From contig JAHPZH010000007.1 in the NCBI GenBank assembly GCA_019058315.1, forward strand, positions 128,001 to 192,000: a DNA stretch of 64,000 nucleotides, given 5' to 3'. The notes under the pieces are model-generated. The model saw nothing but the letters and a program-made list of their open reading frames with translations, was not told the origin of the DNA and did no database searches. Positions within the stretch are counted from its first letter, which is position 1; every line of letters starts with the position of its first letter. Positions 56,054 through 63,716 of this stretch are shown here, in pieces. Source of the stretch: Candidatus Helarchaeota archaeon. GTDB lineage: Archaea; Asgardarchaeota; Lokiarchaeia; Helarchaeales; RDOG01. A program made the position numbers and the translations under genes.

Positions 56054-56992
56054 ATGCAATGTAGGGGTATAAATATCGATCCAAATATTATGAAAGAGGT
56101 CTTGAAACAAATTAATAAAGACAGAATCTCGTCTGAATTAATTTATAATATAATTAGAGATAAAGGATGGGATTTTAAAAGGAAAGAATTATATTTAATT
56201 TCAAAATTAAGAATAGAGTTTGAGGATCCAGAATTTTGGTATTATTTGGGTCTATTTTTCTTTGAAAATTATGAATTGGATAAAAGCCAAGATATATTTT
56301 TAGAAAATGCGTTATATTGCTTTAATAAACCATTTGAAAACAATAAAAATAAAGGTAAAACCATTTTATGTGATGCTTTTGATAATCCAAAAGATATTTT
56401 TTCCTTATCATATTCAGAATATATTGAATTTTTGAACGAATCTCTTGATCATTTGATTGTGATTTATAATAAACCATGCTTTTACGAAGGTTTTTCTTTA
56501 CTTGAGGTTATTCCAAAGAAACCAGAAATAGTCGAGAGGTTTGAGGTTATTATTACAGCTGAATATAATGAACTTATTCAAGATAAAGAAAAAATATTTG
56601 GTGAACGATTACGTCAAATTCAATTTGAAAATAAATTATATGGGATTTTAAAAATATATAAAAAAATACGGCTCTCTGAACTGGCAAAAAAATTAGATTG
56701 TGAACAATCCTATTTAGAAGAAACTTTAGAAAAACTTGTTTTAGAAGAAAAAATTAATGGAACCATAAGAAATCAGTTTTTAACAATTACTAAATTACCT
56801 GAAGATCAAGAAATAATACCTATTATTACAATTAAAGAAGGTCAATGTGCTATATGCAGGGAGGAAATCAAAGAAGAATCATTAACTTGCTCAAATTGCT
56901 CTTCAAAATTCCATAAAAGCTGTTTTTCAAAATGGATTGAAAAAAGCGAATTATGTCCAGTTTGTCAAAAAGAACTTGAAATATTTGAATAA
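56054..56992 (+). CDS. Helical/TPR-like + PCI-like winged helix + RING finger protein
   Basis: IYKKIRLSELAKKL...LE..L..LVLEEKINGTI (PCI-like); CAIC...CSNC...FHKSC..KW......CPVC. Confidence 0.78.
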   Translation: MQCRGINIDPNIMKEVLKQINKDRISSELIYNIIRDKGWDFKRKELYLISKLRIEFEDPEFWYYLGLFFFENYELDKSQDIFLENALYCFNKPFENNKNKGKTILCDAFDNPKDIFSLSYSEYIEFLNESLDHLIVIYNKPCFYEGFSLLEVIPKKPEIVERFEVIITAEYNELIQDKEKIFGERLRQIQFENKLYGILKIYKKIRLSELAKKLDCEQSYLEETLEKLVLEEKINGTIRNQFLTITKLPEDQEIIPIITIKEGQCAICREEIKEESLTCSNCSSKFHKSCFSKWIEKSELCPVCQKELEIFE

Positions 56993-57051: not shown

Positions 57052-57792
57052 ATGAGCCATGATTATTGGTTAAGAAAAGGTTTAAACGAGAGTACGAGAG
57101 AAAGGAAAATTAAATGCTTTGAAAATGCAATTCGCAAATACTCAACTCACGAAATCTTTGCATTTGATGAGTTGGGTCATTGGATTGCTGGATATTTGAA
57201 ACTTAACAACATAAATAGTTTTCTGACTTATAGATTTTTTGGAAGTGTCCATGATAGACTTGGAAATACAAGAAAAGCCATCGAATATTATAAAAAAGCA
57301 ATAGATATCGACCCTAATGATGAGTTTATCTGGCATAGAATCGCGGAAAACTATAGAAACTTGTTAAATTACGAAAAAATAATAGAATGTTATGAAAATT
57401 CAATAAAAATTGATCCAAATATAAAATTTAAATGGATTAATTTAGGAGAAGCTTATTTCAATTTAAATAAATATAAGAAAGCAATTGAATGTTATCAAAA
57501 AGCTTTAGCTATAGAAGAACATCATCTCGAACAAATTGATTTAATTAATGCATGGGAAGGTTTAGGAAATGCACATAAAGAGTTAAAAAATTATGAAAAA
57601 GCTATAAAATGTTATGAAAAAGTAATAAAACTAGATTACAATTATGATTTGGCTTGGGAAAATATGGGATTGATTTATGAGGAATTAAAAAATTATCCAA
57701 AAGCAATTGAATGTTATAAAAATGCATTAAAAATTAACAAATTTAATGAAATTGCTCAAGAACGATTAGAAAAGTGTGAGTCAAAGGAGTGA
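57052..57792 (+). CDS. Tetratricopeptide repeat protein
   Basis: About 5 repeats W..LG..Y..L..Y.KAI.CY.KA. Confidence 0.92.
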   Translation: MSHDYWLRKGLNESTRERKIKCFENAIRKYSTHEIFAFDELGHWIAGYLKLNNINSFLTYRFFGSVHDRLGNTRKAIEYYKKAIDIDPNDEFIWHRIAENYRNLLNYEKIIECYENSIKIDPNIKFKWINLGEAYFNLNKYKKAIECYQKALAIEEHHLEQIDLINAWEGLGNAHKELKNYEKAIKCYEKVIKLDYNYDLAWENMGLIYEELKNYPKAIECYKNALKINKFNEIAQERLEKCESKE

Positions 57793-57799
57793 ATAAAAT

Positions 57800-59812
57800 A
57801 TTTCTAATATACAAGAACCAGATGTAGAAAAATTAGGTCTCTCCAAAGATATTGATGGTTTAATTAAAGCTTTAGAATATCCAAAATGGTATATTAGAAA
57901 AGATGCTGCAAAATGGCTTGGAAAATTAAAGGAATTAAAAACAGCAAAATTATTAATACAACTACTCAAGGACGAAGATTGTTATGTACGAGAGAATGCA
58001 GAGGATTCTCTTATAAGTATGGGTAGTGATGTGGTTGAACTCCTCATCCCTTATCTTAAAGACAAAAATAATAGTATTAAGGGAAATGTAGCAAGTATTC
58101 TTGGTCGTATTGGAGATAAGAGAGCAATTAAACCCCTTATGCCGCTTTTAAATGATGATGACGAAATTGTTCAAATCCGAGTATCTTATGCTCTTAAGAA
58201 TCTTGACTGGAAACCTACCGATAAACAATTAGAAATGAGTTACGAATTTGCTAAAGGTGATTGGAAAGATCCTCATACAATGGACAAAGGTCTACAAAAA
58301 ATTGAAGAAATAATAAACTCTCCTGATTTATTACCAAAACCACCTATAAAACCACCAATCAAACCAGTTCCTAAATCAAAACCTCCTATTCCATCTTTAA
58401 AAGGAAAACCATTAGAAATTATTCTTCCATATTTAAATGATAATGATGAAAATATCCGTATTGAAGCAATAAAAGCTCTTAAACATGTAAAAGACGATAA
58501 AAAAGTGAATCTTCTCATCCATTCTTTCGAAGATAAAGATGAAGATGTCAGATATGAGGCAGTTAAATCTTTAAGTAAGATAAAAAATCTTAAAGCGGTA
58601 GATTCTATAGCTCAACTTTTATGGGACGATTCCTATTTAGTTCAAAAAAAGGCATTAGAAGTCTTAAGAAAAATTGGAAATGCAAACGCGGTAGATCCTC
58701 TGATTAAAGCTCTAAAAGATAAAGTCATTTATACTGAAGCTTTTGAAACTATTGAAAAAATTGGAAAATCTGCTATTACACCTCTTATCAAATTCCTTAG
58801 GGATGAAGATTATTGGATTCGAAAAAACACAGCAGAAACTCTTAATAAACTTGGATGGAAAGCAAAGAATGAAACCGAAAAAGCTTATTATTTAATTGCA
58901 ATTGATGACTCTAAAGGGTGGGAAGAGATAGTAAAATTAGGAGATTTTGCCCTAGAACCCCTCATTAAATCATTAAGTTATAAAAAGTTTCCTAGATTTG
59001 GAGATATTATTTTTCCGGATGATAGAGCAATTGCCCTTTCTGAATTAGGAGAGATAGCATTAGAGCCTCTTATAAAGGCACTAAAGGAAGGAGATTCTAA
59101 TACAAGATGGGGTGCAGCTGAGGCTTTAACGTTTATAGGAGATGTAAGGGCTCTAGAACCCCTTGCCCAAGCTTTAAATGATGAAAATTCAGATGTGAGA
59201 CATAGCGCAATTAGTGCTTTTAGTCATTATTCAGATAAAGAAGTAATAGATGTTTATATAAAGTATAATATGTTAAAGCATAAAGATATTCGAGTCAGAT
59301 TTAGTGCAATGAGAGATATAGGTTGGAGAGAAGATTATCGATTAGTGGAACCTCTACTCCAAGCATTAAAAGAAGATAACTATAGAATTATTGATTCAGC
59401 AGTTCATTCTTTATCAAAGTTAAAAGAAAAAAGAGCAGTAGAACCTCTTATAAAATTACTTAAACATAAAGACTCGATGATTATAAGAACAGCAGCTGAA
59501 GGTCTTGGAGATATAGGAGATGTAAGAGCAGTAGAACCTCTCATAGGGATGCTTAATAATGAAGATTGGCAAATTTTAAGAGAAATAATCAATGCGCTTG
59601 GTAAAATAAGAGATAAAAAAGCAGTAGAGCCCCTTATCCAACTCTTAAATGATAAGGATAAATTTATTAGATTGGAAGCTGTAGAAGCTCTTACAAATAT
59701 TGGTGACTTTACAGCAATTGATCCGATTTATGAGACCATACAAAAAGAAAAAGTTAATTATATAGCAGAAGCTATGCAAAAAGCCTTGGAAGAGTTAAGA
59801 AAAAAAATTTAA
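57800..59812 (+). CDS. HEAT (PBS-lyase-like) repeat protein; start extended to ATT at 57800
   Basis: In-frame upstream of ATG 58019: ISNIQEPDVEKLGLSKDIDGLIKALEYPKWYIRKDAAKWLG...; many AVEPLI..L.D repeats; Pro-rich linker. Confidence 0.88.
   Translation: MSNIQEPDVEKLGLSKDIDGLIKALEYPKWYIRKDAAKWLGKLKELKTAKLLIQLLKDEDCYVRENAEDSLISMGSDVVELLIPYLKDKNNSIKGNVASILGRIGDKRAIKPLMPLLNDDDEIVQIRVSYALKNLDWKPTDKQLEMSYEFAKGDWKDPHTMDKGLQKIEEIINSPDLLPKPPIKPPIKPVPKSKPPIPSLKGKPLEIILPYLNDNDENIRIEAIKALKHVKDDKKVNLLIHSFEDKDEDVRYEAVKSLSKIKNLKAVDSIAQLLWDDSYLVQKKALEVLRKIGNANAVDPLIKALKDKVIYTEAFETIEKIGKSAITPLIKFLRDEDYWIRKNTAETLNKLGWKAKNETEKAYYLIAIDDSKGWEEIVKLGDFALEPLIKSLSYKKFPRFGDIIFPDDRAIALSELGEIALEPLIKALKEGDSNTRWGAAEALTFIGDVRALEPLAQALNDENSDVRHSAISAFSHYSDKEVIDVYIKYNMLKHKDIRVRFSAMRDIGWREDYRLVEPLLQALKEDNYRIIDSAVHSLSKLKEKRAVEPLIKLLKHKDSMIIRTAAEGLGDIGDVRAVEPLIGMLNNEDWQILREIINALGKIRDKKAVEPLIQLLNDKDKFIRLEAVEALTNIGDFTAIDPIYETIQKEKVNYIAEAMQKALEELRKKI
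58335..58392 (+). repeat. Short imperfect 12-bp tandem repeat encoding a KPPI/KPVP Pro-rich linker
   Basis: aaaaccacctat aaaaccaccaat caaaccagttcc ... aaaacctcctat. Confidence 0.6.
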
Positions 59813-59880
59813 TTCAATATTTTATTTTAGATTTTTTTGAACACAAACAAAATAAAAGAAAAAAAATTAGGAATATTCTG

Positions 59881-60978
59881 TTAATCTACTTTTAACAATG
59901 GATTCATTATTCCGAAAGAACCCGTTCGAACTAACGCTGCTTTTAAGAATTGGTAACCAATATCGTATGTTGAGCCATCTCCACCAATTGCAATAACAAC
60001 ACTTGGTGTTCCCTTAAAATGACCTTTAGTTTTTAAAATTCGTTGTGTAGTAGCGATTGCATCTCCTATTGTGGCAGATGTTTCAAAAAGGTGATGCATC
60101 CAAGGCACTTTCCAGCTAGGAACATCATCTTTTGAAAGTGAGACTTCTGAGCAACTCGTGTTATTTGTAATTATGACATTCTTTCCAGCTACCATATATG
60201 CGGCTAAAGCTAAATGGTTGAGTGATACTGCGAGTCCACATCCTGAGCAAAGTCCATAACCTGGTGCAAATAGATCTTGATTTGGAATCTCTTGAGGTTT
60301 AATTGTATACATTTCTATTTGAGCATCAGGATCTCCAAATGCTCTAACTAAATTAAGTATATTTTCATTACGTTGTCTATAAGATTCCCAAATTTGGTCG
60401 ATAGCATCTTCATTAAGTGTTGGTCTTACGAGATGTCTATATTTCCCTAAAAGGTTTATATATTCTACTAATTTCTCTCGATCAGGTTCAGCTTTGAGCT
60501 TTCGACTGAGATAATAAGTTGGTCTTCCATCTCTTACCTTTATAGAAAATAGGGGCCATATACCTGCATCAACTGCGAGTTTGTCGACTTTGTGTGTGAC
60601 ATTTAGTGCATGTCGCCATCCTCGATCGCATGAAGTAAGGGCTTGGATAAAAGCAGATCCGGGAGTTTTAAGTGCTTCAACAACTTTACCTATGAAATCT
60701 TGTGGGTAAGCTGCACTTACTGTTGCTAAGAAAGATGATTTCATACCTAGAAAAGCAAAACCGTTTATTATATCTTGTTTAACTCCAATTTTTCCTGGTA
60801 TTGCTTTTCCACCAGGACCAGTAGTAGTAGACGCAAAAGGGGGAGTAGAACCAGATTCCTGAATTCCCGTATTCATAAAAGCTTCGTTATCATAATTATA
60901 ATATAACATATAATTTTTTGTAGGACGTTTTAATAGATCTTGAACTTTAATTACACGTGCTTTCATTTTTTCACTCAT
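59881..60978 (-). CDS. porB: 2-oxoacid:ferredoxin oxidoreductase beta subunit, circularly permuted
   Basis: YDNEAFMNTGIQ and SCDRGW in the N-terminal half; PG..LCSGC, TSC.EV and GGDGSTYDIG in the C-terminal half; AGGTGA SD before ATG at 60978. Confidence 0.9.
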   Translation of the reverse strand: MSEKMKARVIKVQDLLKRPTKNYMLYYNYDNEAFMNTGIQESGSTPPFASTTTGPGGKAIPGKIGVKQDIINGFAFLGMKSSFLATVSAAYPQDFIGKVVEALKTPGSAFIQALTSCDRGWRHALNVTHKVDKLAVDAGIWPLFSIKVRDGRPTYYLSRKLKAEPDREKLVEYINLLGKYRHLVRPTLNEDAIDQIWESYRQRNENILNLVRAFGDPDAQIEMYTIKPQEIPNQDLFAPGYGLCSGCGLAVSLNHLALAAYMVAGKNVIITNNTSCSEVSLSKDDVPSWKVPWMHHLFETSATIGDAIATTQRILKTKGHFKGTPSVVIAIGGDGSTYDIGYQFLKAALVRTGSFGIMNPLLKVD

Positions 60979-60987
60979 ATTTATCAC

Positions 60988-62202
60988 CTATATTTCTTCA
61001 ATAACTCCTTTTTTCTCTCGTACACCGAGAAATGTATAAAGTTCTCCTTTCATATCATTTATTTTCTTCATTTTCTTCAAAGCCGCGTTAAACTCATCGT
61101 AAGTCACGTCACGACCACCTAAACCAGTAATAAAGCTGTGAACAATAGTTCCTAATGGATAGAGTGATGGTAAAACACTTTGAGTAACTTGAGGTGCGGG
61201 TGCACCAGGAGCATCATTCTTCTCTAATACTATAACCTTTTCAATTCCATTATCATTAATGATTTTACGAAGTTCTTCTGTGGGAAATGGTCTATAAGAT
61301 CTGATTTTAATCAAACCAGCATCTTTGGGGTCAAGCATCCACTGCTTCAGGGTACCACACATCGAACCAAGAGTAAGAAAAGCGATTTTTTTACCATCAA
61401 GATTGAAAGTCTCAATTCGTTCATATTTTCGACCTGTAGCTTTTTCAAATTCTTTGAATTTTTCATCCATTATTTTGGGGACATCCTTTTTTGCTACATC
61501 AATAGCTCTTCTTTGTTCCATGAAATAATCTGGGGTAACTATTCCACCCCAAGTACCGGGCTTTTCAGTAGTAATTGTATGTCTTTTAACACGGGGTGTC
61601 ATCTTGCGAACTACCTCATCTGGGATTACTTTGAATGTTTGTGCTGAATGGGAAATTATGAAACCATCATGACAGAATAATGTTGGAAATAACGATTTTT
61701 CAGCTATCATGCAACTTAATATAGCGGCATCATAGGTTTCTTGAACATTTTCAGAAAATAATTTATTCCATCCATGATCCATAAGAGTAACTTCCCAACT
61801 ATTCCAGATTGATAAATTGGGAGCATTCCAAGCTCTATTTGAAATCAACATATAAACCGGGACTCGCCACCCAACAGCCATTGGTAAACCTTCTTGCATT
61901 AATAAATAACCTTGAGATGCAGTTGCAGTGAATCCGCGAGCTCCAGCTGCAACAGCGGCAGTTATATAAGCTATTGCTGCATGTTCACTTTCAACGTTCA
62001 CGAAAGCAGATTTTAAACGTCCATGATTAACTACATCGCTTAAACCCTCAACGGATTGAGTTTGTGGCGTGATAGGAAATGCGCAAATTACATCCGGATC
62101 GGTCTGAGCGACAGCTCCAGCAACTGCATAATTTCCAGTCATAATTAAAGTTTTTTCTTCTTTGATTTCTTCAAAAAATGGCGCCATTGGAACAACACTC
62201 AT
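60988..62202 (-). CDS. porA: 2-oxoacid:ferredoxin oxidoreductase alpha subunit
   Basis: GNYAVA, FPITPQT, ESEH, TATASQG, DGF..SH, RPFP, GLGGRD. Confidence 0.93.
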   Translation of the reverse strand: MSVVPMAPFFEEIKEEKTLIMTGNYAVAGAVAQTDPDVICAFPITPQTQSVEGLSDVVNHGRLKSAFVNVESEHAAIAYITAAVAAGARGFTATASQGYLLMQEGLPMAVGWRVPVYMLISNRAWNAPNLSIWNSWEVTLMDHGWNKLFSENVQETYDAAILSCMIAEKSLFPTLFCHDGFIISHSAQTFKVIPDEVVRKMTPRVKRHTITTEKPGTWGGIVTPDYFMEQRRAIDVAKKDVPKIMDEKFKEFEKATGRKYERIETFNLDGKKIAFLTLGSMCGTLKQWMLDPKDAGLIKIRSYRPFPTEELRKIINDNGIEKVIVLEKNDAPGAPAPQVTQSVLPSLYPLGTIVHSFITGLGGRDVTYDEFNAALKKMKKINDMKGELYTFLGVREKKGVIEEI

Positions 62203-63131
62203 GCTTCCACCCCCGTTTTCTTTAATTCTGCAGTTAAAGCTCCTTTAGGGCATACTTCAACGCAATTTCTACAACTTTTACAATGTTTCTTATCTACTCC
62301 TACGACTTTCCATGTTCCATCAGATTGTTTTTCTCTTATTATTGAAAGATCAGGACACGTGAGAAAACATCTTTGACAATTTATGCATTTTTCAATATCA
62401 TGCTTTATAATGTAAGGACCCCATTCACCAGTTTTCACTTTTTCAGAACCACCAGGAATATACCAGATAGCACCAGTATCTAGATCTTTATAACCAAGAA
62501 GTTCAGGTTTTACATGGCTCCACTCTTTTTTAACACCCTTTTCAAGATCTAATTTTATATCAGTTTTCATGAATTCAACTGTATCATAAGCTTCTTGGAC
62601 CAATTGAACGTTTTTTTCAGCAATATTTTTCGAAAAAACTTTAAATAATGCATTTTTCACACCATCGATGGTAAATACATCTGAAGCTTTCGCAATTGCT
62701 CCAAGAATTGCGGTATTAGTAATTTCTCTCCCAAGAAGTTTTATTGAGAGGCTCGTAGCATCAATAATACCTATATTGATATCATTACGCTTAATGAATT
62801 TTTTAATCTGATCAAAGCTCATTTCTGTATTTACTATTAATGTGCCACCAGGAGGCATCCCTTCTGTTACGTCAAGTTCTTTTAAAAGAGAATCATCGAG
62901 AACTCCAACAATTTCGGGTGTATAAATTTCGGTTTGAAGTTGAACTAGTTTTGGATTTTTGCTCATAGCAGCATATGCTGCTGTTGGAGAACCCATTCTT
63001 TCCGCTCCAAATTTTGGTTGTGCTCGTCCAGGACCATCAAAGCTTTCTACGGCTAATTGTGCAGCAGTAACACCGCCTTGTCCACCTCTTGCATGGAATC
63101 GTATAAAAACAACTCTATCTTCTTTAGACAT
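62199..63131 (-). CDS. 2-oxoacid:ferredoxin oxidoreductase gamma-delta fusion
   Basis: RFHARGGQG.VT, FGAERMG.P, NTAILGA; then KTGEW and two CxxCxxCxxxCP motifs; GGAGA SD before ATG at 63131. Confidence 0.9.
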   Translation of the reverse strand: MSKEDRVVFIRFHARGGQGGVTAAQLAVESFDGPGRAQPKFGAERMGSPTAAYAAMSKNPKLVQLQTEIYTPEIVGVLDDSLLKELDVTEGMPPGGTLIVNTEMSFDQIKKFIKRNDINIGIIDATSLSIKLLGREITNTAILGAIAKASDVFTIDGVKNALFKVFSKNIAEKNVQLVQEAYDTVEFMKTDIKLDLEKGVKKEWSHVKPELLGYKDLDTGAIWYIPGGSEKVKTGEWGPYIIKHDIEKCINCQRCFLTCPDLSIIREKQSDGTWKVVGVDKKHCKSCRNCVEVCPKGALTAELKKTGVEA

Positions 63132-63323
63132 TTTAATTTCTCCTGAAACTTTTAAATTATGTATGTAATGCACATTTTAATTACATTTAAAAATTCATAT
63201 TGTTTGATCTTCTTAAAACATAGCAAACTTAGTATTATTAAAATTATTGATTTTAAAGTAAGGAGAAATAATAAATCTAATTTGAGGGAAGAAAATTTTA
63301 AAATAGGAAAAAATTTTATCCAG

Positions 63324-63716
63324 TTATTTAATTTTACTATATAATTCTTTTAAAATTTCTTTGTGTACAACTAGACCAACTAGTTTGTTATCTTCTACAA
63401 CAGCAATACGCCTTAGACGTTTTTCTAACATAATTTCAAGTATTTTCTTTAAAGAGGTCTCTGGAGAGACGGATTCTATATTTTTTTTCATAATATCCTC
63501 AACTTTCATGCCCCCAACTGAAATATTAAATCTAGAAAGCATGATGTCACGCATTGAAATCTCCCCAATAAAATTTCCTTCTAAATCGATAACTGGTAGC
63601 CCACCAATACTATTTCGAGTCATTAATAGATCAGCTGCAGCAACTTGTTCTGTTGGAGGTATTGAAATTGGATTCTTTACCATAACATCTTTGGCTTTAA
63701 TATCTTTTATCGACAT
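63324..63716 (-). CDS. CBS domain pair protein
   Basis: KAKDVM, GGLPVID, VEDIM, VVEDNKLVGLV. Confidence 0.9.
   Translation of the reverse strand: MSIKDIKAKDVMVKNPISIPPTEQVAAADLLMTRNSIGGLPVIDLEGNFIGEISMRDIMLSRFNISVGGMKVEDIMKKNIESVSPETSLKKILEIMLEKRLRRIAVVEDNKLVGLVVHKEILKELYSKIK

What the first reader, a model, noticed from the sequence alone, without database searches (positions are those of the whole stretch)
59881..60978. Circularly permuted PorB with the TPP-binding motif split between C- and N-terminus
Established: PorB-type beta subunits run PGH.AC.GC ... TGC.EV ... GGDG ... (about 25 aa) ... YDNE.YMNTG.Q ... C..GW. Seen: this ORF begins with the second half (YDNEAFMNTGIQ at aa ~32-43, SCDRGW ~119-124, GIWPLF). 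A linker follows (~212-238), then the canonical first half (APGYGLCSGC ~241-250, TSC ~277-279, GGDGSTYDIG ~335-344), and the protein stops about 14 aa after ALVR. The break falls inside the GDG-x24-27-N Mg/TPP motif. All four [4Fe-4S] cysteines are retained, and the gene sits in an intact gamma-delta/alpha/beta operon. Inference: a functional natural permutant whose new termini flank the cofactor site, possibly changing substrate access or assembly.
Basis: partly seen in the sequence, partly recalled or inferred. Interest (0 to 1): 0.85.

Follow-up and report, generated by a model that had tools for sequence, protein, structure and literature searches.

The report
Circularly permuted oxoacid-oxidoreductase beta subunit
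This Asgard (Loki/Hel-type) archaeon encodes the cofactor-binding subunit of a pyruvate-type 2-oxoacid:ferredoxin oxidoreductase with its two halves in swapped order; the rearrangement is real, old, conserved and under selection, I found it in no paper, and NCBI labels these proteins 'hypothetical'.

Summary
The gene at 59881-60978 (-) gives 365 aa from the ATG; I number residues on the 368-aa ORF that starts at the upstream GTG. Residues 25-204 match PorB profile positions 119-297. Residues 231-355 match positions 5-118. The break lies between the GDG and the DN of the ThDP/Mg motif.

All four cluster cysteines and the cofactor motifs are invariant in 36 relatives. It is not a misassembly:
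- More than 200 full-length homologues (52-100% identity) share the order, including one in the closed genome of Ca. Lokiarchaeum ossiferum.
- Contigs from an independent study bridge the linker and both gene ends.
- pN is 0.07-0.11 against a saturated pS of about 0.70.

The gene occurs in 128 of 160 other genomes of its class and in 1 of 239 elsewhere in the phylum. It forms one clade on a very long stem, nested among canonical PorB proteins. A predicted alpha/beta complex passes its controls and puts the new C-terminal tail on alpha.

The substrate is unknown. This scan already found the same family on other DNA (at least 7 genomes). Verdict: a new variant of a known kind.

The parts
59881..60978 (-). 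Permuted OFOR beta gene (365 codons plus TAA). The likely true start is ATG 60978-60976; the longest ORF starts at GTG 60987.
   Evidence: The relatives P0003 and P0004 start at the equivalent MSEK.
60983..60989 (-). AGGTGAT Shine-Dalgarno-like site, 4 nt upstream of the ATG. It overlaps the alpha stop codon TAG (60988-60990).
   Evidence: Read directly from the sequence.
60916..60978 (-). N-terminal extension (residues 4-24), not matched by the canonical profile. L19 is invariant. The model gives strand 10-14 and helix 15-19, with pLDDT about 97 for block 11-20.
   Evidence: No significant similarity to any canonical part.
60376..60915 (-). Residues 25-204 = canonical second half (PorB profile 119-297). 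Holds the strand plus DN (D33, N34), MNTGIQES, cluster ligand C120 and RGWR.
60859..60894 (-). YDNEAFMNTGIQ (residues 32-43): the distal end of the ThDP/Mg motif, now near the N-terminus.
   Evidence: invariant N31-S45 except position 37.
60304..60375 (-). New linker (residues 205-228) joining the canonical C-terminus to the canonical N-terminus. It is the least constrained part (pN 0.17-0.27).
59923..60303 (-). Residues 229-355 = canonical first half (profile about 3-118). Holds C247-x2-C250, C279 and G336-D337-G338.
59974..59982 (-). GDG (residues 336-338): the proximal end of the ThDP/Mg motif, now about 30 residues from the C-terminus.
   Evidence: invariant.
59884..59922 (-). New C-terminal tail (residues 356-368). 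N362 is conserved in at least 90% of relatives. Residues 358, 362 and 364-365 touch alpha in the predicted complex.
   Evidence: No detectable relic of the canonical strand.
60988..62202 (-). Alpha subunit (404 aa; POR_N + PFOR_II). Best NCBIfam match is PorA_Arch at 316.5 bits, below the 550 cut-off.
62199..63173 (-). Fused gamma-delta subunit (POR domain plus two 4Fe-4S motifs). The likely start is the ATG at 63131, giving 310 aa as in relatives. Its stop overlaps the alpha start.

Best explanation
The gene encodes a natural, functional circular permutant of the PorB-type beta subunit (ThDP-binding PP domain plus proximal [4Fe-4S] site) of a four-domain-set 2-oxoacid:ferredoxin oxidoreductase.

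Shown here: the chain starts at canonical position 119, runs to the canonical C-terminus, crosses a new linker of about 24 residues, continues from the canonical N-terminus to position 118, and ends in a 13-residue tail.

Inferred: the protein folds to the same three-dimensional domain. Mg-ThDP would then be held by D337 (GDG, near the C-terminus) and D33/N34 (near the N-terminus). The cluster would be held by C247, C250 and C279 plus C120. The subunit would assemble with the co-transcribed alpha and fused gamma-delta subunits and oxidatively decarboxylate a 2-oxoacid to acyl-CoA, reducing ferredoxin. Pyruvate is the first guess for the substrate.

The rearrangement happened once, at or near the base of the class that holds Loki- and Hel-type Asgard archaea. 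It was followed by a burst of change and then strong conservation. The enzyme is one of three POR/VOR-type enzymes in this genome, alongside two with the canonical order.
For: Swapped two-piece matches to the PorB profile and to solved PorB and OOR-beta chains.

36 aligned relatives keep the order with 67% mean column identity. GDG, NYDNEA.MNTGIQES, C120, C247, C250, C279 and RGWR are invariant.

232 homologues were found; the 120 listed cover 77-100% of the query (mostly 96-99%) in one local alignment. All non-family hits among 1197 in the 50%-clustered library have the canonical order.

The gamma-delta/alpha/beta operon is conserved at 54-55% identity.

Purifying selection: pN 0.07-0.11 against pS about 0.70, equal in both halves and weaker in the linker and tail.

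Distribution: 128/160 other genomes of the class against 1/239 elsewhere in the phylum.

Tree: the family is one clade (100), on a stem of 1.54 changes per site, nested among canonical proteins. Two of those that were scored, P0179 and P0184, pass NCBI's PorB cut-off.

Ca. Lokiarchaeum ossiferum has the protein on a 6.27-Mb contig.

Contigs of an independent study bridge the linker, the alpha/beta junction and the stop, with no joints.

AF2 model pTM 0.87. Its second-half piece superposes on PFOR domain VI and on PorB/OOR beta at Z 11.4-13.1, rmsd 2.9-4.0 A, over 177-186 residues.

Predicted alpha/beta complex: ipSAE 0.78, best of 3 controls 0.00. That mark was reached by 58 of 80 solved complexes and 2 of 110 mismatched pairs. 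The runs agree in at least 95% of contacts and the partner's pLDDT is at least 85. Similar complexes are solved, so this pass may partly reflect memory.

The alpha subunit keeps the ITP-Thr (T45) and Arg (R123) that bind the substrate carboxylate in D. africanus PFOR. That mapping is from my own knowledge; their invariance is.
Against: There is no biochemical, proteomic or structural data for any member.

The summed score against the PorB model is 204.6 bits (cut-off 405), and alpha scores 316.5 (cut-off 550). By NCBI's rules neither is an equivalog.

The long stem (1.54 changes per site) could mean a changed substrate or role.

The cofactor loops are modelled with low confidence (pLDDT below 60 for about residues 40-80 and 283-289), as expected without cofactor.

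No circular-permutation-aware superposition could be run, so 'same 3-D fold over the whole chain' rests on sequence homology of both halves plus a half-length structural alignment.
Confidence: 0.88

Rival explanations
1. Functional permutant, but the enzyme has a changed substrate or role (not pyruvate; another 2-oxoacid, or a reductive/carboxylating or regulatory role). The long post-permutation burst of change would reflect this.
For: The stem is 1.54 changes per site, against crown branches of 0.3 or less. Beta and alpha both score well below the PorB and PorA cut-offs. The genome has two further canonical POR/VOR-type operons whose alphas match PorA_Arch better (452.8 and 434.3 bits). It also has about five KorAB-type and three IOR-type enzymes, so redundancy would allow divergence.
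Against: The best profile matches are still PorB, PorA and PorC/PorD. The tree neighbours that were scored (P0179, P0184) pass the PorB cut-off. The carboxylate-binding T45 and R123 of alpha and N39 of beta are invariant.
Confidence: 0.3
2. Assembly artefact: the swapped order is a local misassembly of a metagenome-assembled genome.
For: The window comes from a MAG (12 contigs, 6.6% contamination).
Against: More than 200 independent sequences from NCBI, JGI, ENA and Logan share the order. So do 130 species-level genomes, several of them single-contig, and Ca. L. ossiferum on a 6.27-Mb contig. Contigs from a different study span the linker (59882-60396 and 60171-60477) and both gene ends, without joints.
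Confidence: 0.01
3. A decaying or non-functional remnant of a duplicated porB that is merely carried along in the operon.
For: NCBI annotates members as 'hypothetical protein'. Pfam barely sees the domain (19.7 bits, below 21.9).
Against: pN/pS is about 0.1 with saturated pS, and both halves are equally constrained. Catalytic and cluster residues are invariant across a whole class. The gene is single-copy and has an intact frame in most matching genomes; the exceptions are a few contig-end truncations and five matches with an in-frame stop. The operon has no other beta gene.
Confidence: 0.03
4. The chain is repaired after translation: intein-like splicing or cyclisation would rejoin positions 118 and 119 and restore a canonical or circular protein.
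For: The nearest canonical PorBs carry LAGLIDADG inteins at three sites inside the same GDG...N motif. One site (V|C-YDNE) is six residues from the break.
Against: The protein has no Hint or intein domain (Pfam). The extension (21-24 aa) and tail (13 aa) are too short for split-intein halves. They show no similarity to anything tested.
Confidence: 0.01

Closest known systems
PorB, beta subunit of the four-subunit archaeal pyruvate:ferredoxin oxidoreductase (Methanosarcina acetivorans, PDB 9bt4 chain C; NCBIfam NF008819)
   Same: Both halves are homologous (E 1.5e-38 overall). It has the same ThDP/Mg residues, the same four cluster cysteines and the same partner subunits in an operon. The second-half piece superposes at Z 11.4, rmsd 3.5 A, over 178 residues.
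   Different: The chain order is cyclically shifted at position 118/119. It has a new linker of about 24 aa, a 21-24-aa N-terminal extension and a 13-aa C-terminal tail. Gamma and delta are fused. The score is below the family cut-off (204.6 against 405). It sits on a very long branch.
Oxalate oxidoreductase beta subunit (Moorella thermoacetica, PDB 5c4i/5exd chain C/F)
   Same: The same two-piece homology (E 2.2e-33). Structural match at Z 11.5-11.8.
   Different: OOR has the canonical order and a different substrate pocket, and it does not use CoA (from my own knowledge of the OOR papers). It is the third-best NCBIfam profile match to the permuted beta here, after PorB and the VorB-type model.
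Domain VI of single-chain PFOR (Desulfovibrio africanus 1b0p/2c3y; Moorella 6cin)
   Same: The same PP-domain fold and motifs. Top structural Z of 12.3-13.1 over 177-186 residues.
   Different: Domain VI is the last domain of a polypeptide of about 1,170-1,230 aa in canonical order. Here it is a separate subunit and is permuted.
Domain-order rearrangements among ThDP enzymes (for example transketolase PP-PYR against pyruvate decarboxylase PYR-TH3-PP; my own knowledge, not tested here)
   Same: The superfamily is known to tolerate reshuffling of its modules.
   Different: Those are changes in the order of whole domains. Here the cut lies inside the PP domain and inside the cofactor-binding motif itself.

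Membership tests
PorB-type OFOR beta subunit (NCBIfam NF008819 / Pfam PF02775 PP domain) | ThDP/Mg motif residues GDG ... (D)N | tested here: met
   G336-D337-G338 and D33-N34 are invariant in 36 relatives. They are 303 residues apart, rather than about 27, because of the permutation.
PorB-type OFOR beta subunit (NCBIfam NF008819 / Pfam PF02775 PP domain) | Four cysteines of the proximal [4Fe-4S] cluster (CxxC, TxC, C..GW) | tested here: met
   C247, C250, C279 and C120 are invariant. C247, C250 and C279 align to C812, C815 and C840 of 1b0p; C120 does not pair with C1071 in that alignment but is aligned to the cluster cysteine of 9bt4_C and 5c4i_C, and the equivalence to C1071 is by motif (my reading).
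PorB-type OFOR beta subunit (NCBIfam NF008819 / Pfam PF02775 PP domain) | Colinear match to the family model above its curated cut-off | tested here: not met
   204.6 bits against 405, in two swapped stretches. Pfam PF02775 gives 19.7 against 21.9. It is therefore homologous to the family and probably works like it, but it is not a member as the models define one.
PorB-type OFOR beta subunit (NCBIfam NF008819 / Pfam PF02775 PP domain) | Encoded with alpha, gamma and delta partners | tested here: met
   The gamma-delta fusion, alpha and beta are adjacent on one strand here and in relatives.
PorB-type OFOR beta subunit (NCBIfam NF008819 / Pfam PF02775 PP domain) | Forms the alpha/beta heterodimer | tested here: met
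   In silico only: ipSAE 0.78 against a best control of 0.00. The mark was reached by 58/80 solved complexes and 2/110 mismatched pairs. A similar complex is solved, so memory may contribute.
PorB-type OFOR beta subunit (NCBIfam NF008819 / Pfam PF02775 PP domain) | 2-oxoacid-dependent ferredoxin reduction | not testable with these tools
   Needs an anaerobic enzyme assay.
Natural circular permutant (definition) | One ORF; both parts homologous to one canonical domain in cyclically shifted order; old termini joined | tested here: met
   The end of the linker (229-245) equals canonical positions 3-20 (hhalign E 7e-4), and the canonical C-terminus is reached at residue 204 (profile 297/300).
Natural circular permutant (definition) | Same three-dimensional fold over the whole chain | tested here: inconclusive
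   Sequential aligners can superpose only one half (TM 0.33-0.45; Z 11.4-13.1 over about 180 residues). No permutation-aware aligner was available.
Intein-containing or split-intein protein | Hint/intein splicing domain or its halves at the chain ends | tested here: not met
   Pfam finds no Hint or intein match in the protein, whereas canonical relatives P0178, P0185 and P0189 score 54-72 bits.

The most novel reading that the evidence does not exclude
The permutation created a functionally distinct enzyme. New chain ends at the alpha/beta interface, followed by a burst of adaptive change, gave Loki-type Asgard archaea an OFOR with altered assembly, substrate range or oxygen/redox behaviour. 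This permuted enzyme may also be the one written as 'pyruvate:ferredoxin oxidoreductase' in metabolic reconstructions of the closest cultured relatives of eukaryotes. The MK-D1 operon DSAG12_00808-00810 has the same beta, alpha and fused gamma/delta layout, but its orthology was not verified here.
Probability: 0.25. Interest if true: 0.75.

Novelty: new variant of a known kind. Interest (0 to 1): 0.6.

Why it matters
2-Oxoacid:ferredoxin oxidoreductases are the central energy-yielding step in the amino-acid-fermenting metabolism proposed for Asgard archaea and for the archaeal host of eukaryogenesis (PMC7015854).

A class-wide member of this enzyme family has its cofactor-binding domain cut inside the GDG...N motif and re-joined. 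This is a rare natural experiment on the ThDP fold. It shows that the beta-alpha-beta unit carrying both Mg ligands need not be contiguous.

There is also a practical consequence. Profile-based annotation fails on these proteins: NCBI calls them 'hypothetical protein', Pfam falls below threshold and NCBIfam reaches about half its cut-off. Pathway calls that require all subunits will therefore wrongly score this OFOR as incomplete in Lokiarchaeia genomes. A dedicated family model would fix that.

Tried and rejected
1. Relics of the duplication that the classical permutation-by-duplication model predicts.
- hhalign of the N-terminal extension and of the C-terminal tail against a canonical alignment gave E 0.11 and 0.26.
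- A fixed-register PSSM test of the tail against the canonical strand that would follow R354 gave a median rank of 152 of 290 positions.
- The extension scored negatively both at the helix register (rank 5) and at the canonical N-terminus (rank 6).
- Nothing was detectable.

2. Tandem beta-beta fusion intermediates. None appeared among proteins of 645-2000 aa or in the listed best hits of the other searches (120 of 232; 150 of 1197). The longer hits are single-chain PFORs, alpha-beta or flavoprotein fusions and intein carriers.

3. Apparent short forms (P0177, 257 aa; P0367, 278 aa). Their contigs have many neighbouring genes broken into pieces, so these are frameshift noise, not natural split forms.

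4. 'The permuted enzyme is the only POR of the genome.' Not supported: the alphas of the two canonical operons match PorA_Arch better than this one does.

5. Intein origin of the break. There is only positional proximity (six residues) and no sequence trace.

6. Expression. No RNA holder was listed for this stretch.

7. MK-D1. Supplementary Tables 3 and 4 of PMC7015854 list an operon DSAG12_00808-00810 (beta, alpha, fused gamma/delta; RPKM 286, 372, 314) with the same layout. I could not confirm that DSAG12_00808 is the permuted orthologue.

8. Foldseek and VIA-align are sequential and cannot test the whole-chain fold.

9. Four literature searches for a permuted OFOR or ThDP domain found nothing relevant.

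Full report
**Observation**

The minus-strand ORF 59881-60987 (368 aa from a GTG) is the last gene of a three-gene operon:
- a gamma-delta fusion at 62199-63173 (POR domain plus two 4Fe-4S motifs);
- alpha at 60988-62202 (POR_N + PFOR_II);
- this beta gene.

The sequence upstream reads TAG-GTG-ATA-AAT-ATG. AGGTGAT is a Shine-Dalgarno-like site 4 nt before the ATG at 60978, and the closest relatives start at the equivalent MSEK.

**The permutation is real**

NCBIfam's PorB model (300 positions) matches residues 25-204 to positions 119-297 and residues 231-355 to positions 5-118. The solved PorB of Methanosarcina acetivorans (9bt4_C) and the oxalate oxidoreductase beta subunit (5c4i_C) give the same two swapped stretches.

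A profile comparison shows that residues 229-245 equal canonical positions 3-20 (E 7e-4). The whole canonical chain is therefore present. It is cut between positions 118 and 119 and rejoined by about 24 new residues (205-228). Beyond that there is an N-terminal extension of 21-24 residues and a C-terminal tail of 13 residues.

All four cluster cysteines are present (C247, C250, C279, C120).

**Not an artefact, not a relic**
- A word-indexed search of 5.8 billion proteins found 232 homologues. The 120 listed are mostly about 360 aa (285-375) and cover 77-100% of the query, mostly 96-99%, in a single local alignment at 52-100% identity. They come from NCBI, JGI, ENA and Logan assemblies labelled Helarchaeota, Lokiarchaeota or Promethearchaeota.
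- In 36 aligned members the mean column identity is 67%. GDG, NYDNEA.MNTGIQES, RGWR and the four cysteines are invariant.
- Ca. Lokiarchaeum ossiferum carries the protein on a 6.27-Mb contig, named 'hypothetical protein'.
- Contigs from an independent 2025 sediment study, at 90-99% identity, bridge three places with no joints: the linker (59882-60396 and 60171-60477), the alpha/beta junction (60874-61298 and 60730-61163) and the stop (59700-60041).
- Against the two closest relatives, pN is 0.07-0.11 while pS is saturated at about 0.70. Both halves are equally constrained. The linker (pN 0.17-0.27) and the tail (0.13-0.21) are looser, as expected for new connecting pieces.
- The gamma-delta/alpha/beta order is kept in relatives at 54-55% identity and in a closed genome.

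**Distribution and origin**

Among 400 genomes of the phylum, 130 have the gene at E <= 1e-60. That is 128 of 160 other genomes of the same class, against 1 of 239 outside it. The single outside hit is truncated and comes from a genome with 8% contamination. Some highly complete genomes in the class lack it with this query.

In the exhaustive search of the library clustered at 50% identity, the family collapses to one representative plus fragments. Every other hit (1197 at E <= 1e-3) has the canonical order.

I cut the family computationally at the linker, restored the canonical order, and built a tree with 54 canonical representatives, six intein-free versions of intein carriers, the genome's own paralogues and a KorB-type outgroup:
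- The family is one clade (support 100) on a stem of 1.54 changes per site. Crown branches are 0.3 or less.
- It is nested, with weak support (81), beside canonical proteins. Cluster mates of two of the closest canonical proteins, P0178 (in this group) and P0183 (not in it), are labelled Altiarchaeales and Bathyarchaeia; the Korarchaeota-labelled P0212 lies outside this group in the tree.
- Two of those neighbours (P0179, P0184) pass NCBI's PorB equivalog cut-off.
- The genome's own canonical betas lie elsewhere. P0122 is VorB-like at 427.9 bits; the other is P0123.

The evidence therefore points to one ancient event at or near the base of the class, then a burst of change, then stasis.

How the permutation arose is not shown:
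- No beta-beta tandem fusion turned up.
- Neither new terminus keeps a detectable relic of a duplicated segment.

**Fold and assembly**

AlphaFold2 with the family alignment gives pTM 0.87 and mean pLDDT 79.9. Confidence is low only in the cofactor loops.

Sequential aligners can superpose only one half:
- Foldseek gives TM 0.33-0.45 on PorB, OOR and PFOR.
- VIA-align gives Z 11.4-13.1, rmsd 2.9-4.0 A, over 177-186 residues on PFOR domain VI and on PorB/OOR beta, far above the next unrelated rows.

The predicted alpha/beta complex scores ipSAE 0.78, against 0.00 for the best of three controls. That mark was reached by 58 of 80 solved complexes and 2 of 110 mismatched pairs. The runs agree in at least 95% of contacts and the partner's pLDDT is 86. 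Similar complexes are solved, so part of the pass may be memory.

The confident interface uses beta residues 269-365. These are the first-half piece, the helix after GDG, and tail residues 358, 362 and 364-365. They face alpha residues 37-38, 64-88, 104-108 and 204-221.

**Where the break sits**

In the model GDG ends strand 330-335, helix 343-358 follows, and the chain then ends. The next canonical element, strand 27-33 carrying DN, opens the protein.

In the known beta-alpha-beta fold of the ThDP motif (established knowledge), both Mg ligands lie at the C-terminal ends of neighbouring parallel strands. The helix-to-strand loop lies at the opposite edge. The new termini are therefore adjacent to the motif in sequence but about one helix length away from the cofactor in space, and on the alpha interface in the predicted complex. 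I could not measure this.

**Function**

The best profile matches are:
- PorB, then VorB, for beta;
- PorA_Arch for alpha (316.5 bits, cut-off 550);
- PorC and PorD for the fusion.

Alpha keeps the Thr (T45, in ITPQ) and Arg (R123), and beta keeps N39. These bind substrate in D. africanus PFOR (mapping from my own knowledge; invariance).

The genome also has two canonical POR/VOR-type operons whose alphas fit PorA better. It further has about five KorAB-type and three IOR-type enzymes. My call is a ThDP- and Fe-S-dependent 2-oxoacid:ferredoxin oxidoreductase. Pyruvate is the first guess at about even odds, and another small 2-oxoacid is the main alternative.

**Known or new**

Four full-text searches found no description of a permuted OFOR beta or of a permuted ThDP PP domain.

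Imachi et al. (PMC7015854) place 2-oxoacid:ferredoxin oxidoreductases at the core of Asgard energy metabolism. They list an MK-D1 operon with the same beta, alpha and fused gamma/delta layout as POR, expressed at RPKM 286-372. I could not verify that it is the permuted orthologue.

This scan has already reported the same family from at least seven other genomes, with the same verdicts. My results agree and add the following:
- the class-restricted distribution;
- the long stem and the PorB-equivalog neighbours in the tree;
- the negative relic tests;
- the intein hot spot next to the break;
- the independent-contig bridging;
- the placement of the tail on alpha.

**Verdict**

This is a real, conserved and selected circular permutant of a known enzyme subunit. 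It is a new variant of a known kind. Its interest is moderate to high for enzymologists and for annotation of Asgard metabolism.

Noticed in passing
Proteins P0178, P0185, P0211, P0212, P0225, P0241 (site a); P0189, P0219, P0251, P0269 (site b); P0209, P0230, P0189 (site c): Canonical PorB genes of other archaea (cluster mates labelled Altiarchaeales and Korarchaeota) carry large inteins at three different sites, all inside the GDG...N ThDP motif; a LAGLIDADG domain and an intein splicing domain were confirmed by Pfam for the three scanned (P0178, P0185, P0189). The sites are after GDG[AG], at V|C-YDNE (six residues from the permutation break) and at YMN|TG. P0189 carries inteins at two sites. 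This is an intein hot spot in PorB.
   Followed up: partly
L033 and L034 (contigs of P0367 and P0177): A more divergent permuted lineage (49% identity) sits on long contigs whose genes, including the OFOR alpha and gamma-delta, are broken into pieces. This looks like frameshift noise in a long-read assembly, not a natural split of the beta gene.
   Followed up: partly
window 63324-63716 (-): A 130-aa protein with two CBS domains lies directly upstream of the operon on the same strand. It keeps this position in the closest relatives (L035, L036) but not in distant ones. It is a possible small-ligand-sensing partner or regulator.
   Followed up: no
window 56054-56992 (+): A 312-aa protein combines a PCI domain and a C-terminal RING-H2 finger, both eukaryote-signature-type domains. 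The same gene lies near the operon in relative L037.
   Followed up: no
window 58019-59812 (+) and 57052-57792 (+): A 597-aa HEAT-repeat protein (9 or more repeats, with a proline/lysine-rich spacer near residues 95-125) and a 246-aa TPR protein converge on the 3' end of the beta gene.
   Followed up: no
G075:C23:2008-2796 (and L044, labelled Hermodarchaeota): This is the only hit outside the class among 239 genomes. It is truncated (266 aa), 51% identical, and in a genome with 8% contamination. It could be bin contamination or a lateral transfer.
   Followed up: no
window 60834-60941: Contig depth from other sediment metagenomes spikes (up to 158x) over the YDNEAFMNTGIQES codons, with loose ends on both sides. 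Many other organisms' OFOR genes share this stretch nearly letter for letter at the DNA level.
   Followed up: no
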